Positions 4,119 to 50,198 of a DNA stretch of 64,000 bases are shown piece by piece (the first letter of the stretch is position 1; every line of letters starts with the position of its first letter). The position numbers were made by a program, and so were the translations under genes. Source of the DNA: an uncultured Armatimonadetes bacterium (GTDB lineage Bacteria > Armatimonadota > UBA5829); assembly GCA_963711155.1 (NCBI GenBank), contig CAVQDB010000004.1:336486-400485 (forward strand), read 5' to 3'. The notes beneath the pieces are model-generated. The model had not been told where the DNA came from. It saw only the letters and a list, made by a program, of their open reading frames with translations, and did not search any database.

Positions 4119-4712
4119 CTACAGGATGGGATACTCGGTGCCGAGAATTCGCAACCGGACGTCGGTCTTGTTCTGCACAGGTGTTCCGGCAGGCACACTC
4201 ATCCGACGCCAGAATGACAGCTTGGTCGCGTGGGGTTTGTCACCGAGGATGAGCTGCGCGCCGGGCGTTGCCGAGTCGAGTTCGACCTGTGTCGCGGCAA
4301 GCGTGCACCAGGAAGACTCGTCGTCGCCGGCGGCATCGAGCACCTGCACGACAAGCCCGGTGTAGTCGTAGCCCGAGTAGACTTTGGTGCCGGAGCTGTG
4401 GCCGGTCGGAGTCGTGCCGCCGTAGCCGCGCTCGACGGTTAGGTCGGTCGTGCCTCCGCCGCTCAGGACTCTCATCTGCTCACTGCCGATGATGATCGCT
4501 TCTTCGTTCGTGAAGCGCGGCTCGGAGAGCTGAACACCGGTCTGAGACGAGTTCATTGCAGCGGCAAGAGCGGTCTGCTCATTCGCGACGAATAGCTCGC
4601 GGTCCTTGGACTCGCCATCAGTACCGTTGTAGATGTCCGAGTCCGGGTTGGCCATCGTGCCCTCGGATATCTGGTCGGTGAGATCCGTGTCTGTATATAA
4701 ATGTATGGACAT
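4119..4712 (-). CDS. Hypothetical fibre/baseplate-associated protein
   Basis: Intact 197-aa ORF, tightly packed between neighbouring genes on the same strand. No family recognised. Confidence 0.5.
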   Translation of the reverse strand: MSIHLYTDTDLTDQISEGTMANPDSDIYNGTDGESKDRELFVANEQTALAAAMNSSQTGVQLSEPRFTNEEAIIIGSEQMRVLSGGGTTDLTVERGYGGTTPTGHSSGTKVYSGYDYTGLVVQVLDAAGDDESSWCTLAATQVELDSATPGAQLILGDKPHATKLSFWRRMSVPAGTPVQNKTDVRLRILGTEYPIL

Positions 4713-9116: not shown

Positions 9117-9494
9117 TCAGTGCCTCGCGAAGTAGTTGATGATCGAGCTGATGACGCCGCTCAGGATCCCGCCGACAGCGACCATGAGGCCGACGACTTT
9201 CCACATCGTCTCGACACCGACCTTGCCTTCGAGGTCCTTGTGCAGGCCCTTGATCTCGTCAGCGTGCCGCTCGAGCTCGTCGTTGATTCCCCGAACGATA
9301 AGGTCGACGTTCTCCTTGTCGCTCTTCTTCTCGATCTCCCGCTCGATGCGCTCAAGCCGGCCCTGGATGTCGCGCCGATGCTCCTCAAGGATCGTGCGAA
9401 ACTCCGCGCGCCAGGCGTCGAAGGTCTTCGCAAGAAGCCTCTCGCTCTCGACCCAGCCGCACTTGCCCGGTCCCTGGCATTCGTTCTCAGCCAC
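9117..9494 (-). CDS. Hypothetical coiled-coil protein with C-terminal TM helix
   Basis: GTG start after GGAGGAAAAGAGA. VAENECQGPGKCGWVESERLL...RLERIEREIEKK...WKVVGLMVAVGGILSGVISSIINYFARH. Confidence 0.45.
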   Translation of the reverse strand: MAENECQGPGKCGWVESERLLAKTFDAWRAEFRTILEEHRRDIQGRLERIEREIEKKSDKENVDLIVRGINDELERHADEIKGLHKDLEGKVGVETMWKVVGLMVAVGGILSGVISSIINYFARH

Positions 9495-44367: not shown

Positions 44368-44387
44368 TACTTTCGCGTATATGTTTT

Positions 44388-44883
44388 TCAGAAATCGGTT
44401 CGCTTGAGCCAAGGTTGAGGCACGTTCGGGTTATAGAGGCGGTTGGGCTTGCCGTGCTCGTGCAGGTAGACGATCTCGATGTATGCACGCTGTGACCTCT
44501 CCAACCTGCCGAGCGCCTGAAAGGAAGCAGACCAGGCCATACTCCTGTCCATAGGGAAACGGATATCGCCCTCGGTTCTGATAGAGACCCGCTTCAGTCC
44601 ATCCCAACTGCATCGCCTCCTCGCGAATCGCATCCACTTGCGCGACAGCTTCCGGTGCGACGGACAGCGTAGAGGGCAAACAGCCATCTCTTGGAAACAG
44701 ATGCTCAGTCGACGGCGTCGGAGCGCTCGCCTCCTGAAGCTCCTGCATGATCGCCGCCTTGTTCTCGAGCGCCAAGGTGCGGATGTCGTCGGTGATGGCC
44801 GACCTCGGCTCAAGCCAGAGGATGTTCCCCGACCGGACGGATGCCCGAATGCCGTGCTTGGCGAGCGTCTCCAGGTATGGCAT
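44388..44883 (-). CDS. Hypothetical protein downstream of the primase (1 apparent frameshift near 44510)
   Basis: MPYLETLAKHGIRASVRSGNILWLEPRSAITDDIRTLALENKAAIMQEL... then ...QEYGLVCFL / QALGRLERSQRAYIEIVYLHEHGKPNRLYNPNVPQPWLKRTDF. Confidence 0.4.
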
Positions 44884-47277
44884 CAGAACGCCTCCCCGTC
44901 GGACCAGTCCAGGTCGTTCTCAGCCTCACCGGAATCGGCGGGTTGATGATGTTGATCTTGTTGACCTGGTTCATGTAGATTTCTCATGCATGAGGTATTT
45001 GCGCATGAATCGTTTTCCTCATGCGCGCATGAGGAATTCTCATGATCTAGGTCAACAAGGTCAATAAGGTCAACTTGACCTTCAGACCTGCGGTCGGCAA
45101 GTCCCACCCCACGCCACCACTTGTACCCCTTCGCACCAGTATATGTCTCACAGTTGCCGCGCTCGCCCATCCGCAGGCCGAACCAGCGCTGCGACAGTGG
45201 CCTCTCGCCAGCCTGCTCGGCCCACTCGCAGTAAGCCTGGAACAGGTCCTTTGCCGACACACGTGCCTGGGGTTGGAAGACACACGACTCCGAGAGAAAG
45301 CCGCCCAGCACATCCATATCCTGCTGCAGCTTGCCCGTGGCTGCCTTGACCGCCTTTGCCGCAGGCAGAGCATTGCGCTGCCACTCCAGGCAGCCTCTGA
45401 GCACCCAAGCGAGGATTCCGGGATACTCTTCTCGCAGCTTCTCGGGAAGTGTCTTGTCTTTGTATGGACCAACCGGCGAGTCGGGATCATGGAACTCGAC
45501 GGTGAACGGGATCAGCCGAATTCTGCGCCAGATCCCTTTCTCCTGGCCGTGGATGACCGGCACGTGGTTGCACGCCAGCCAGAGCTTGAAGACCGGAATG
45601 AACTCGAAATACTCCTGATAGAGGAACCTTGCCGTTATCGCATCCTGCCCAGTCAGTTCCTTCACGAGTGCCTCTGCCAGCCTCTTGCCGGCGCTGGTCT
45701 CGATGGCCGAGACGAACCGCGCGCCTCTCAGGCGGGCGACGTCGTTGCTTGCGCTGCCCGCCTGCTTCTCGAGGATCGCGTCGGTAGATGTCTTCTGACC
45801 ATAGTCGCCGAAGATGTCGCGCAGGACGTTGACGAATGTGCTCTTGCCGTTGGAGCCGGAGCCGTGCAGGATGAAGAACACCTGCTCCCTGCGTGTCGCC
45901 GGTGAGCGTGTAGCCGCAGGCAGCCTGAACGAAACCGATAAGCTCCTCGTCTTGGTTGAAGATGTCCGCGAGGAACCGTTCCCAAGTGGGGCAGGGTGCG
46001 TCGCTGTCAAACTCGACGGGGCTGAGCTTGGTTATCATGTCCTCGCGTCGGTGGGGTCTGAGCTGACCGGAGCAGAGGTCGAGGGTACCGTTGGTGCAGT
46101 TGAACAACCAGGGATCGGAGTCCATGTCCGAATACAGCACCGGCACGCCGCATTCCGACTGAGCCTGAAGAAGCATCGCAACAACTCGGCCGTTGTTGCC
46201 TGACGCGATGGTATGCTTCTCGAACTCCTTCGCTGCGGCAAGCGCCGCCTTGTCGGCATCTGCTTCCGCCTTCTCGCGAGCTTCCTGGGCACGCACCAGC
46301 ATTGCGTCAATGGTGCGCTTCGCCATCCGCACGACTTCGCCAGTCTGATCCTCAGCCCAATGCCTGCCGTCCCACGTGTACCATCGCCCGCGGTCACAGC
46401 AGTAGCGGATGGAGTCACCGTGAGCTGACACGAGCCGGCGGGCGTTGCCGATGTCGTTGAGCTGTTCACCATCGATGCCGACAGGAGCATCGGGGTCTCC
46501 TCCGGGCATCCAATCGGGCGCTTCACTCACGATCCGGCGAATGTCCTCGGCTGTCCCGCCAGCCTCTATCCAATCCGTCACATCGCCCTTTGGCTGCAGG
46601 TTCGGAAGCTCCACGACCCGAATCCGTGCCGCAAGGCCGTCGAGGCTGGTCGCGACCTTATCGGCATGGCCCCTGCCAGGCAAGTCATTGTCGGGCAGGA
46701 TGACGACGTCCGCGCCGGCGAGCTGCTGGGAATAGGGTTTCAGCCACTTGCCGGCTCCGCCCGGATTGCACGTTGCCGTGAGTCCCAGTCGCTCAAGGGT
46801 CAGTGCGTCCTTCTCGCCCTCGACGACATAAACGATCCGACCTTGGGCGATTGCTGCCTTGACCTGTGGGAGCCGGAAGAGGTATCTCGTTACGCCCTTG
46901 ATGTTCCAGACCCACTTGGTGCCATTCGCCGTGACCTCACGCCGGCGCTGGCTGAAGCCCTTGGGCCGGAATCGCACAACTTGATACGCGAGCTTGCCTT
47001 GAGCGTCGGTGTAGTCGTAGGTGGCGACGATCCTACGCCCTGTGTCAGCGGATGATTGCTGCTGACCGGCAGGGAACAGATTCTGCATCTTGAGGCCGAC
47101 CGCGTGCAGGATGTCCTTGAGCTCACATCCGGCGTGGCAGTGGAGCAGTATCTTGCCGTCTTCCTGAACGCTAATGCTCAGGCTGGCGACCTTATCATCA
47201 TGCGCCGGGCACTTCGCCTGCCAGCCGTTCGGAGTCTTCTTCGCGCCTGGGAATCTGGATAGTACGTCGTCGATCAC
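44883..47277 (-). CDS. Bifunctional DNA primase / helicase (zinc-finger + Toprim + D5_N/P4-type NTPase); 1 apparent frameshift near 45890
   Basis: GTG start after GAGGGTGG. WQAKCPAHDDKVASLSISVQEDGKILLHCHAGC (Zn finger); IVYVVEGEKDALTLERLGL...VVILPDNDLPGRGHA (Toprim); after the frameshift, FFILHGSGSNGKSTFVNVL (Walker A) ...KLWLACNHVP...WRRIRLIPF. Confidence 0.9.
44942..45080. repeat. Iteron/palindrome cluster: candidate replication origin embedded in the primase 3' coding end
   Basis: Left: GTTGATGAT GTTGATCTT GTTGACCTG (44942-44968). Centre: perfect palindromes CTCATGCATGAG (44983-44994) and CCTCATGCGCGCATGAGG (45017-45034), plus a further CTCATG at 45039. Right: GGTCAACAA GGTCAATAA GGTCAACTT GACC (45050-45080), the inverted complement of the left set. 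Confidence 0.6.
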
Positions 47278-50008: not shown

Positions 50009-50198
50009 CCTCCTAGCACCTCTCCAGGGAACTTTTCGCACCCGCTGAAATTCGACCCCATCTTTTTTTCACGCCTCGGAAACAACTGATTCCACGCTCA
50101 GAATGTCCTCATCAGCCCATCAACGGCCGCCCGGCCATCCCTCCTCCGAGCGAAATTTCGCCATGTGAGGTTGACAGACTCGAAGCGAGGGATTCCGG

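What the first reader, a model, noticed from the sequence alone, without database searches (positions are those of the whole stretch)
44942..45080. Symmetric iteron and palindrome array inside the 3' end of the primase-helicase gene: candidate phage origin
Three 9-bp direct repeats (GTTGATGAT, GTTGATCTT, GTTGACCTG) at 44942-44968 are mirrored by three inverted copies (GGTCAACAA, GGTCAATAA, GGTCAACTT) at 45050-45076. Between the two sets lie two perfect palindromes, CTCATGCATGAG (12 bp) and CCTCATGCGCGCATGAGG (18 bp), plus additional CTCATG/GCATGA half-sites. This ~140-bp structure lies within the last ~65 codons of the primase ORF, where the protein reads ...VDLIDLVDLDHENSSCAHEENDSCANTSCMRNLHE..., i.e. 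sequence dictated by the repeats. Origins embedded in or next to the initiator/primase gene, built from iterons, are well known in satellite phage P4, lambdoid O genes and PICI elements. The organised symmetry is very unlikely to be coding-driven.
Basis: seen in the sequence. Interest (0 to 1): 0.6.

Follow-up and report, generated by a model that had tools for sequence, protein, structure and literature searches.

The report
Phage replication origin inside primase-helicase gene
The repeat-and-palindrome array is real and is very probably the replication origin of an Armatimonadota prophage, written into the last 71 codons of the phage's own P4-type primase-helicase gene; it is a known kind of origin in an unusual, in-frame position.

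Summary
There are three 9-bp units at 44942-44968 and three inverted units at 45050-45076. An 81-bp low-GC spacer between them holds a 12-bp and a 22-bp perfect palindrome and seven CATG. On a 3+3 symmetry score the array reaches 47 of 54. The rest of the 64-kb window reaches at most 41, and shuffles give 35.0 ± 1.1.

The array lies on the coding (minus) strand of a Toprim / D5_N / SF3 / winged-helix primase-helicase of the P4 family. It sits in a predicted disordered C-terminal tail.

In 13 of 16 close relatives (Armatimonadota MAGs, IMG/VR) the same 3+3 layout occupies the same tail, always with a 9-bp period. The core sequence differs between loci (TTGAC, GGACC, GTGAC, GTAGA, GTGTAGG), and both arms change together. 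In distant Bacillaceae relatives the gene stops earlier and the array is non-coding, with periods of 7-11 bp.

Iteron divergence tracks the winged-helix domain, not the ATPase. P4 crr and the SaPI ori have the same position and layout.

The verdict is a candidate origin, a new member of a known kind. No replication was tested. This scan has noted the same kind of element many times on other DNA.

The parts
44883..47277 (-). Primase-helicase gene of the prophage (about 797 aa if read through). In this assembly it is split into two overlapping frames, 47277..45487 and 46010..44883.
   Evidence: Pfam Toprim_2, D5_N, DUF5906 and Pox_D5. NCBIfam TIGR01613 P4-family primase C-terminal domain, 214.7 bits against a cut-off of 108.7. 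PHROG DNA primase, E 4e-79. PDB profile hits to ASFV C962R, SaPI5 PriRep5 (7ola) and poxvirus D5.
45888..45892 (-). One extra base that breaks the frame between the D5_N part and the Walker-A part. Probably an assembly error.
   Evidence: Alignment with three intact relatives shows a single-base insertion here (sequence). The next gene is also frameshifted. Earlier agents called this assembly error-ridden.
45090..45314 (-). Coding sequence of the C-terminal winged-helix domain, the proposed iteron reader. It ends in the beta-hairpin CETY-TGAKG-YKWW.
   Evidence: AlphaFold2 residues 192-266 of the 334-aa C-terminal half have pLDDT 74-94 and the topology H-E-H-H-E-E. Best Foldseek hits are winged-helix DNA-binding domains: RFX-DBD (TM 0.71 on the target) and Orc1/Cdc6 on origin DNA, at E about 0.01-0.03. 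Pfam Pox_D5 covers the same stretch.
45050..45076 (.). Gene-proximal iteron arm: three 9-bp units. On the coding strand they read AAGTTGACC TTATTGACC TTGTTGACC and are translated as (Q)VDL IDL VDL.
   Evidence: (family D2).
45066..45082 (.). A local palindrome, AAGGTCAA-c-TTGACCTT, formed by the outermost unit and one extra opposed TTGACC copy.
   Evidence: inverted pair I9.
44969..45049 (.). Spacer between the arms. It has low GC (0.42-0.43), seven CATG, and TCATG/CATGA half-sites in both orientations. Proposed melting region.
45015..45036 (.). Perfect 22-bp palindrome TTCCTCATGCG|CGCATGAGGAA. Its CCTCATGCGCGC core is conserved in relatives that carry different iterons.
   Evidence: I4. Conservation.
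44983..44994 (.). Perfect 12-bp palindrome CTCATGCATGAG. The closest relative keeps CCTCATGCATG.
44942..44968 (.). Gene-distal iteron arm: three 9-bp units, GTTGATGAT GTTGATCTT GTTGACCTG on the + strand, inverted relative to the proximal arm. Translated as (P)GQQ DQH HQ(P).
   Evidence: (I1, I2, I5).
44886..44915 (-). Codons for the conserved C-terminal peptide DLDWSDGEAF. They also carry the GGGGAGG Shine-Dalgarno-like run for the next gene.
   Evidence: The peptide is conserved in relatives L003, L008, L009, L095-L097, L099 and L101. DNA.
44431..44883 (-). Downstream gene of unknown function. Its ATG overlaps the primase-helicase stop codon (TGATG). It is conserved in relatives and is itself frameshifted near 44500-44558 in this assembly.
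   Evidence: No Pfam or PHROG family.

Best explanation
This is the replication origin, or at least the initiator-docking array, of the prophage. It is a P4/SaPI-type origin placed inside the coding sequence of its own initiator.

The primase-helicase (Toprim primase, D5_N, SF3 ATPase, C-terminal winged helix) would bind the two opposed sets of three 9-bp iterons (core TGTTGACC) through its winged-helix domain. One oligomer would sit on each side, facing inward. The 81-bp low-GC spacer between them would melt, and the helicase rings would load themselves there for bidirectional unwinding. The Toprim domain of the same protein would lay the first primers.

The array sits in the gene segment that encodes a disordered linker between the winged helix and a short conserved C-terminal peptide. 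The protein therefore tolerates whatever the iterons dictate, and the only cost is that the iteron period must be a multiple of three (9 bp).

Shown here: the anatomy, its statistical singularity, conservation of the architecture with co-varying arm sequences, family membership of the protein, and position equivalent to P4 crr and the SaPI ori.

Inferred: binding by the winged helix, melting of the spacer, two-sided loading, and any role for the CATG-rich palindromes.
For: (1) The array is unique in the window: score 47 of 54 against at most 41 elsewhere, and shuffles give 35.0 ± 1.07.

(2) Across 146 distinct homologue loci, the 430 nt after the winged-helix coding sequence score a mean of 39.95. 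Five hundred and eighty control segments of the same loci score a mean of 35.7, 99th percentile 39, maximum 41. Thirty-five loci score 42 or more.

(3) In the clade above 55% identity, 13 of 16 loci have z > 4. All have their best period at 9 bp and all arrays are inside the ORF. The cores differ: TGTTGACC, GGACC, TGTGACGC, GTGAA, TGTAGAG, GTGTAGGG, ATGTGGC.

(4) The arms co-vary. A consensus built from the direct arm alone finds an inverted triple downstream at 21-24 of 27 matches in 11 of 16 loci. The same strand gives 12-16 of 27. Positions between the cores are not complementary, so these are binding sites, not a stem.

(5) In relatives at or below 55% identity (Bacillaceae prophages and others), the ORF stops 9-120 nt after the winged helix. 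Clear opposed iterons, for example TTTTGTTAC, TAGGGATAG and GTGACGGAA, lie in a 250-700-nt non-coding gap, with periods of 7-11 bp. The genes downstream differ: ERCC4, VRR-NUC, HNH plus terS, or unknowns. The array therefore travels with the primase-helicase.

(6) Iteron distance correlates with winged-helix-domain distance once ATPase distance is controlled for: partial Mantel 0.43, permutation p = 0.0005. The reverse partial correlation is -0.08.

(7) The window and its closest relative L095 (87% identical in the helicase part) differ in iteron core (TTGACC against GGACC). Their winged helix also differs at three residues of the wing tip.

(8) The protein belongs to the P4 family (TIGR01613, 214.7 bits) and is a homologue of SaPI5 PriRep5 (7ola, E 1.2e-5).

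(9) The known counterparts match. In SaPIs, iterons are oppositely disposed around an AT-rich region immediately downstream of rep and are bound by the winged-helix C-terminal domain. SaPI5 iterons L2-L4 are TGCAACC + AA, which is 9-bp spacing. P4 crr lies directly after the alpha gene and carries opposed type-1 octamers TGTTCACC, one base different from the core here. Two of them are spaced 9 bp apart, and they surround an A/T-rich stretch.

(10) GC3 of the array codons is 0.31 against 0.74 in the phage genes, and the tail is predicted disordered with pLDDT 22-31.
Against: No replication, binding or melting has been observed.

The correlation between the winged-helix domain and the iterons could partly reflect physical linkage. 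The two are adjacent on the DNA and would be co-inherited in mosaic exchange whatever their function.

The relation between iteron and wing is not one-to-one. GTGAC-type iterons occur with at least two different wing sequences.

The spacer is only moderately AT-rich (GC 0.42-0.43) and in some relatives it is not AT-rich at all (GC 0.52-0.59).

P4 needs two cis sites, ori and crr. This array could be the crr-like one, although no second iteron cluster was found in the 64-kb window.

The primase-helicase gene is frameshifted in this assembly. If that is real, this copy of the origin would be orphaned.

The structural model is poor outside the winged helix (mean pLDDT 47), and no Foldseek match reaches E ≤ 0.001.
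Confidence: 0.8

Rival explanations
1. It is a crr-like auxiliary cis element, not the start site. As in P4, the initiator would bind here, but replication would begin at a second iteron cluster elsewhere in the phage, and this array would only stimulate or regulate it.
For: The protein belongs to the P4 family. In P4 the iteron region directly after the alpha gene is crr, and the annotated rep_origin lies about 4.5 kb away.
Against: No second cluster of TTGACC / GTTGAY comparable to this one exists in the 64-kb window: the top cluster elsewhere has 3 copies against 5 here. The genome holds no second copy of the array. There is no 120-bp duplication like that of P4 crr. SaPI replicons of the same general family use the single array after rep as their ori.
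Confidence: 0.08
2. It is a binding array for a different protein or process, such as a transcriptional operator, a partition-type centromere, a pac site for the nearby terminase, or a recombinase site.
For: Opposed short repeats at sub-helical spacing also occur in centromeres and operators. TTGACC plus 17 nt plus GAGAAT gives a weak promoter-like match.
Against: Across more than 100 loci the array keeps its place right after the winged-helix coding sequence of the primase-helicase, while the downstream genes change (ERCC4, VRR-NUC, HNH plus terS, unknowns). The iteron type tracks the primase-helicase C-terminal domain. The promoter-like match depends on the TTGACC core, which relatives replace with GTGAC, GTAGA and others.
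Confidence: 0.07
3. It is a nucleic-acid secondary structure. A long hairpin in the mRNA or in single-stranded DNA, or a cruciform, would act in termination, translation control or priming, and the iterons would simply be its stem.
For: The arms form a 48-nt imperfect inverted repeat. The window's spacer folds better than shuffles as ssDNA (z = -3.4). Rfam gives only a sub-threshold hairpin-precursor match across 44946-45071.
Against: Only the 5-7-nt cores match between the arms. The positions between cores are not complementary in any locus. Spacer hairpin potential is not conserved: z ranges from -3.4 to +0.6 across 12 relatives. No Rfam family reaches its threshold.
Confidence: 0.03
4. It is a coding-driven peptide repeat or a chance pattern with no DNA-level function.
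For: The region is translated, and the tripeptide repeats (VDL/IDL/VDL) could in principle be selected as protein.
Against: The symmetry score lies far outside shuffles and the rest of the window. The inverted arm encodes an unrelated peptide (GQQ DQH HQ). Relatives keep the DNA symmetry while the peptides change. Non-coding versions exist in distant relatives and in P4. GC3 is 0.31 against 0.74.
Confidence: 0.02

Closest known systems
Satellite phage P4: alpha primase-helicase with its type-1 iterons in ori and crr (record NC_001609)
   Same: The protein has the same family and domain order: a Toprim-type primase, D5_N, an SF3 helicase and a C-terminal DNA-binding domain. TIGR01613 is passed at twice its cut-off. 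An iteron region lies directly at the 3' end of the gene. The octamers are opposed around an A/T-rich stretch. Two adjacent octamers are spaced 9 bp apart. The core TGTTCACC differs from TGTTGACC here by one base.
   Different: P4 crr is non-coding, lies after a terminator, and consists of two 120-bp direct repeats. P4 also has a separate ori about 4.5 kb away with type-2 repeats. Here there is one array, in frame inside the gene, with no duplication and no second cluster in the window. The element here is a full prophage with terminase, portal and head genes, not a satellite.
SaPI/PICI Rep and PriRep5 self-loading helicases with their ori (PMC9371898; bioRxiv 10.64898/2026.10.17.759575)
   Same: The layout is the same: penta- to heptanucleotide iterons in opposite orientation on the two sides of an AT-rich region at the 3' end of rep. 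They are read by the winged-helix C-terminal domain of an SF3 helicase that loads itself. In SaPI5, three consecutive iterons are spaced 9 bp apart. The protein here is a distant homologue of PriRep5 (7ola, E 1.2e-5 with a profile).
   Different: The SaPI ori spans about 300 bp with a roughly 100-bp AT-rich centre and is described as immediately downstream of the ORF. Here the array is about 135 bp long and entirely inside the ORF, and the spacer is only moderately AT-rich and carries CATG/CGCGCG palindromes. The host element is a phage, not a phage-inducible island. Sequence identity to PriRep5 is low.
Phage lambda ori inside the O gene (from general knowledge, not tested here)
   Same: The origin iterons lie inside the initiator's own coding sequence, in a segment that encodes a flexible linker. 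The DNA sites therefore dictate a tolerated stretch of protein, and transcription of the gene passes through the origin.
   Different: Lambda O is not a helicase or primase and is unrelated in sequence. Its iterons are four direct 19-bp repeats with the AT-rich region on one side, and helicase loading needs lambda P and host DnaB. No symmetric 3+3 arrangement exists there.
SV40 large T antigen and papillomavirus E1 origins (SF3 helicases; from general knowledge)
   Same: Short recognition elements in inverted orientation recruit two SF3 helicase assemblies head to head at a site next to easily melted or palindromic DNA.
   Different: In those viruses the inverted pentamers are central and the melting elements flank them, which is the reverse of the order here. 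Their DNA-binding domain is not a C-terminal winged helix. They are eukaryotic viruses.

Membership tests
P4-family phage/plasmid primase-helicase (NCBIfam TIGR01613) | The C-terminal primase/helicase region scores above the curated model cut-off. | tested here: met
   TIGR01613 scores 214.7 bits against a cut-off of 108.7 on the C-terminal ORF piece. The N-terminal piece continues the same model at positions 2-74.
P4-family phage/plasmid primase-helicase (NCBIfam TIGR01613) | Domain order: Toprim-type primase, D5_N, SF3 ATPase with a Walker A motif, C-terminal DNA-binding domain. | tested here: met
   Toprim_2/Toprim_3 (weak), D5_N (E 4e-39), DUF5906 and Pox_D5, with a weak dnaG Toprim match. 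GSGSNGKST is seen in the translation. A winged-helix fold is predicted with pLDDT 74-94.
P4-family phage/plasmid primase-helicase (NCBIfam TIGR01613) | An intact single reading frame. | tested here: not met
   One extra base at 45888-45892 splits the gene. It is probably an assembly error, because the next gene is also frameshifted. Reads could not be consulted.
SaPI/PICI-type Rep-ori replicon | Iterons in opposite orientation on the two sides of a central low-GC region. | tested here: met
   There are 3 + 3 opposed 9-bp units around an 81-bp spacer of GC 0.42-0.43, against about 0.61 for the gene.
SaPI/PICI-type Rep-ori replicon | The ori lies immediately downstream of the rep open reading frame. 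| tested here: not met
   The array is at the 3' end but inside the ORF, at codons 7-57 of the 71-codon tail. In distant relatives it is downstream and non-coding.
SaPI/PICI-type Rep-ori replicon | The initiator is a self-loading SF3 or SF6 helicase homologous to Rep/PriRep. | tested here: met
   A profile of the C-terminal half hits 7ola (SaPI5 primase-helicase) at E 1.2e-5 over 246 residues. The homology is distant.
SaPI/PICI-type Rep-ori replicon | The winged-helix C-terminal domain binds the iterons specifically. | not testable with these tools
   Only indirect support is available. Iteron divergence tracks C-terminal-domain divergence (partial Mantel 0.43, p = 0.0005). Physical linkage is a confounder.
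SaPI/PICI-type Rep-ori replicon | The element is a phage-inducible chromosomal island: small, without its own structural and packaging genes. | tested here: not met
   Large terminase, portal and MuF head genes follow on the same strand, along with a terS-like gene. It is a prophage, so it works like a SaPI ori but is not a PICI.
P4 ori/crr | Type-1 octamer iterons (TGTTCACC) in both orientations, bound by the alpha protein. | tested here: inconclusive
   The core here, TGTTGACC, matches 7 of 8 positions and occurs in both orientations. Whether this reflects shared recognition is not known.
P4 ori/crr | Two cis sites: ori plus crr, with crr made of two 120-bp direct repeats. | tested here: not met
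   The array is single, with no long direct duplication and no second iteron cluster in the window or the genome.
Functional replication origin (any family) | It supports initiator-dependent initiation of DNA synthesis. | not testable with these tools
   No experiment was possible, and the read-depth route was closed.

The most novel reading that the evidence does not exclude
The origin and the initiator's C-terminal linker are one piece of DNA under dual use, and this may be more than a packing accident. Codon phase locks the iteron period at 9 bp. Any switch of origin specificity rewrites the initiator's own tail. Transcription and translation of the initiator gene must pass through its own docking sites, which would give a built-in feedback between initiator expression, translation of the coupled downstream gene and origin firing. 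In addition, the CATG cluster (7 in 81 bp) and the conserved CATGCGCGC tract could be a methylation- or Z-DNA/cruciform-sensitive timing element, analogous to the GATC clusters in oriC.
Probability: 0.12. Interest if true: 0.6.

Novelty: new member of a known kind. Interest (0 to 1): 0.38.

Why it matters
This gives a concrete candidate origin, about 135 bp long, together with its initiator, for a temperate phage of Armatimonadota. As far as I know, no phage replicon or genetic tool has been characterised in that phylum. The set of relatives forms a natural specificity series: the architecture stays the same while at least six iteron cores are used. That series could be used to work out how the wing of P4/SaPI-type winged-helix domains reads DNA. 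It also shows one protein family with its origin before, across or after the stop codon. The period is fixed at 9 bp only when the array is translated, which is a clean example of coding phase constraining a cis element. In kind, however, it is what specialists would expect next to a P4-type primase-helicase.

Tried and rejected
- **Exact k-mer search.** A search for 3+3 arrays found nothing, even at the window's own array, because the arms share only 4 invariant bases. I replaced it with a column-majority score.
- **blastn against phage records.** A search with the 2.9-kb region found no match.
- **Conserved hairpin or cruciform in the spacer.** Rejected as a general feature. ssDNA folding z-scores across 12 loci run from -3.4 (the window) to +0.6.
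- **Known RNA family.** Only sub-threshold miRNA-precursor-type matches to the inverted repeat.
- **Promoter reading of TTGACC.** One 9-of-12 match. Relatives replace the core, so I dropped it.
- **Second iteron cluster (P4-like ori plus crr).** None in the window or genome.
- **pac-site reading.** Rejected because the downstream context varies while the array stays with the primase-helicase.
- **AlphaFold2 model.** Only the winged helix is confident (mean pLDDT 47), and no Foldseek hit reaches E ≤ 0.001. I use the fold assignment as support only.
- **One-to-one code between wing and iteron.** Not found. GTGAC iterons occur with different wings.
Full report
**Observation.** Three 9-bp units lie at 44942-44968 (GTTGATGAT, GTTGATCTT, GTTGACCTG). 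Three inverted units lie at 45050-45076 (GGTCAACAA, GGTCAATAA, GGTCAACTT). The 12-bp palindrome CTCATGCATGAG is at 44983-44994. CCTCATGCGCGCATGAGG is at 45017-45034 and is in fact part of a perfect 22-bp palindrome at 45015-45036. The repeat finder joins the two arms into a 48-nt inverted repeat, 77% complementary. GC drops to 0.42 against about 0.60-0.65 around it.

I built a score that sums the majority count per column over three direct and three inverted 9-bp units (maximum 54). The array scores 47. The best other place in the 64-kb window scores 41. Three hundred dinucleotide-preserving shuffles of the region give 35.0 ± 1.07, with a maximum of 39. The spacer also holds 7 CATG in 81 nt, where 0.22 are expected. 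This is the densest CATG cluster in the window.

**Context.** The genes here are on the minus strand. The array lies in the 3' end of a primase-helicase gene that carries Toprim, D5_N, DUF5906 (SF3 ATPase, Walker A GSGSNGKST) and Pox_D5 domains. The gene passes the NCBIfam model for P4-family primases at twice its cut-off. A profile of its C-terminal half hits ASFV C962R, SaPI5 PriRep5 (7ola, E 1.2e-5) and poxvirus D5 among solved structures.

Downstream on the same strand come several genes. First is a small conserved gene whose ATG overlaps the primase-helicase stop (TGATG). Then come a terS-like gene, the large terminase, the portal and a MuF-like head gene. So this is a prophage. Record titles of the closest genomic relatives name Armatimonadota MAGs.

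In this assembly the primase-helicase is split by one extra base at 45888-45892, relative to three intact relatives. The next gene is also frameshifted. Earlier agents on this genome described the assembly as error-ridden.

**Is the array really translated?** Yes. The last conserved domain ends at …WWRGVGL (45099). The frame then stays open for 71 more codons. In 14 of 16 relatives above 55% identity (the window's own tail included), the frame likewise stays open for 147-336 nt. About half end in the same peptide, (S/G/D)LDWS(N/D)G(V/E)AF, followed by the same TGATG overlap with the next gene.

Between the domain and that peptide the protein sequences are not alignable. AlphaFold2 predicts no structure there (pLDDT 22-31), whereas the preceding 75 residues form a confident winged helix with pLDDT 74-94. 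Their best structural matches are winged-helix DNA-binding domains such as RFX-DBD and Orc1/Cdc6 on origin DNA, at E about 0.01-0.03, so this is support only.

The array codons have GC3 of 0.31 against 0.74 in the phage's genes and use rare codons such as GTT, ATT, CTA and AGA. The DNA, not the protein, sets this sequence.

**Comparative evidence.** I collected homologous loci from related genomes, from one genome per GTDB species, and from IMG/VR. That gave 146 distinct loci.

- The 430 nt after the winged-helix coding sequence score a mean of 39.95 on the 3+3 measure. Five hundred and eighty control segments of the same loci score a mean of 35.7, 99th percentile 39, maximum 41. Thirty-five loci reach 42 or more.
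- In the clade above 55% identity, 13 of 16 loci have z > 4. Every one has its best period at 9 bp and the array inside the ORF.
- The layout is constant: three direct units starting 5-15 codons after the domain, a 48-90-nt spacer, then three inverted units.
- The core differs between loci: TGTTGACC (window), GGACC (L095), TGTGACGC (L096, L097, L099, L006 and, less exactly, L003, L009), GTGAA (L101), TGTAGAG (L005), GTGTAGGG (L007) and ATGTGGC (L008, L012).
- The two arms of a locus always carry the same core. A consensus derived from the direct arm alone finds an inverted triple downstream at 21-24 of 27 matches in 11 of 16 loci. The same strand gives 12-16 of 27.
- Positions between the cores are not complementary between the arms. 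The symmetry is therefore that of protein-binding sites, not of a stem.

**Distant relatives.** In relatives at or below 55% identity, mostly Bacillaceae prophages, the gene usually stops 9-120 nt after the winged helix. Clear opposed iterons such as TTTTGTTAC, TAGGGATAG, GTGACGGAA and TGACGGGTT lie in a 250-700-nt non-coding gap. Their best periods are spread over 7-11 bp. Some of the high scores in AT-rich gaps are low-complexity sequence and should be discounted. The first genes after the gap differ: an ERCC4 nuclease, VRR-NUC, HNH plus terS, DUF2399, or unknowns.

So the array belongs to the primase-helicase, not to packaging or any other neighbour. The strict 9-bp period appears only where the array is translated.

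**Who reads it?** Across 29 loci with clean arrays, pairwise iteron distance correlates with distance in the last 60 residues (the winged helix), with Spearman 0.43. With ATPase-domain distance held constant, the partial Mantel correlation is 0.43 with permutation p = 0.0005. The ATPase domain has no independent predictive value (-0.08).

The window and its closest relative L095 are 87% identical in the helicase part. They differ in iteron core, and their winged helix also differs at three residues in the tip of the beta-hairpin wing (TGAKG against KGPRG). This fits the cryo-EM description of SaPI5 PriRep5, where the wing reads the iteron bases in the major groove.

Two caveats apply. The domain and the array are adjacent, so linkage alone could produce some correlation. 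And GTGAC-type iterons occur with more than one wing sequence.

**The spacer.** The window's palindromes are real, but hairpin potential is not a conserved property. ssDNA folding z-scores of 12 spacers range from -3.4 (the window) to +0.6. What is conserved in the nearer relatives, across different iteron types, is a (C)CATGCGCGC tract 20-30 nt after the first arm. Its length varies, and it is expanded in L099. There is also an excess of CATG: 20 against 4.2 expected in 15 relatives, which are not independent. Between the window and L095, the islands CCTCATGCGCGC and CCTCATGCATG are kept while the iterons have changed. I cannot say what this element does. Candidates are a second protein's site, a primer start, a methylation cluster, or a supercoil-sensitive alternating purine-pyrimidine tract.

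**Comparison with what is known.**

- *P4.* In the P4 record, the cis replication region crr lies directly after the alpha gene. Each of its 120-bp repeats has type-1 octamers in both orientations around an A/T-rich stretch. Two adjacent octamers are 9 bp apart. The octamer TGTTCACC differs from the window's TGTTGACC by one base.
- *SaPIs.* Six to twelve penta- to heptanucleotide iterons lie immediately downstream of rep, half on each side of an AT-rich region and pointing in opposite directions. The winged-helix C-terminal domain of the self-loading SF3 helicase binds them, presumably one hexamer per side. SaPI5 iterons L2-L4 are TGCAACC + AA, which is 9-bp spacing.
- *This element.* It has the same position, the same symmetry and a homologous initiator. 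It differs in being wholly inside the ORF (as lambda ori is inside O, from general knowledge), in being compact (about 135 bp), in having only a moderately AT-rich spacer with CG/CATG motifs, and in belonging to a complete phage and not to a satellite or island.

**Mechanism proposed.** Winged-helix domains of the primase-helicase dock on the three iterons of each arm. The two assemblies face each other across the spacer. The spacer is distorted and melted, and the SF3 rings load themselves. The Toprim domain primes. The conserved acidic/aromatic C-terminal peptide, reached through the disordered, origin-encoded linker, is a plausible contact for another replication protein. That last point is inference by analogy with the C-terminal tails of SSB and T7 gp4, from memory and untested. 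Only the anatomy, its conservation and the family relations are shown here; every biochemical step is inferred.

**Rivals.** These are a crr-like auxiliary site with the true start elsewhere (0.08), a site for another protein or process (0.07), a nucleic-acid structure (0.03), and a coding-driven or chance pattern (0.02). The grounds are in the Rival explanations section.

**Novelty and interest.** This is a new member of a known kind, the P4/SaPI-type initiator-adjacent iteron origin. It has one layout twist (in-frame, codon-phased) and comes from a phylum with no characterised phage replicons. This scan's earlier notes list the same kind of element many times on other DNA, including an in-gene version in actinobacterial plasmids. 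Those are unchecked AI notes and I do not count them as evidence. A specialist would find this tidy but not surprising, so interest is 0.38.

Noticed in passing
window 45888-45892 (minus strand): The primase-helicase gene carries one extra base relative to three intact relatives. This splits it into ORFs 47277..45487 and 46010..44883. It is probably an assembly indel.
   Followed up: partly
window 44373-44883 (minus strand): The conserved gene translationally coupled to the primase-helicase (TGATG overlap) is 180 aa in the closest relative. Here it is split between two frames near 44500-44558. This is a second frameshift within 1.5 kb.
   Followed up: partly
window 44969-45049: There are seven CATG in 81 nt (0.22 expected), the densest cluster in the 64-kb window. 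CATG is also enriched in the spacers of relatives (20 against 4.2 expected). It could be a methylation-site cluster or the half-sites of a second binding protein.
   Followed up: partly
spacers of L003, L006, L008, L012, L095-L097, L099, L101 (and window 45017-45028): A (C)CATGCGCGC alternating purine-pyrimidine tract of variable length sits 20-30 nt after the first iteron arm in loci with different iteron cores. In L099 it is expanded to about 35 nt. Its function is unknown.
   Followed up: partly
window 44886-44915; same position in L003, L008, L009, L095-L097, L099, L101: A conserved C-terminal peptide, (S/G/D)LDWS(N/D)G(V/E)AF, ends the primase-helicase. It is acidic with an aromatic end. 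Its codons also contain the GGGGAGG/GGGGTGG Shine-Dalgarno-like run for the next gene.
   Followed up: no
L044, L046-L048, L073, L075 and other Bacillaceae loci (primase-helicase tails): Some Bacillaceae relatives have tails reading …RVTERVTE… or …GVNEGVNE…, which suggests in-frame iterons with a 12-bp (four-codon) period. Many tails end in EEEI, VEEDI, DVPF or DEPF. My 9-bp score did not capture these.
   Followed up: no
window 45036-45064 (minus strand): The iteron TTGACC, a 17-nt spacer and GAGAAT give a 9-of-12 sigma-70-like promoter match pointing towards the downstream genes. It is probably incidental, because relatives replace the core.
   Followed up: partly
window 50119-50170: A minor cluster of GTTGA[CT] (3 copies in 150 nt) lies upstream of the phage sigma-factor gene. 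It is the only other place in the window with more than two copies.
   Followed up: no
L175 (phage P4, NC_001609) 4291-4590 and 9310-9413: The P4 type-1 iteron TGTTCACC differs by one base from the core here (TGTTGACC). SaPI5's iteron is TGCAACC. P4-family winged-helix domains in very distant hosts seem to read related TGNNNACC-like words.
   Followed up: partly
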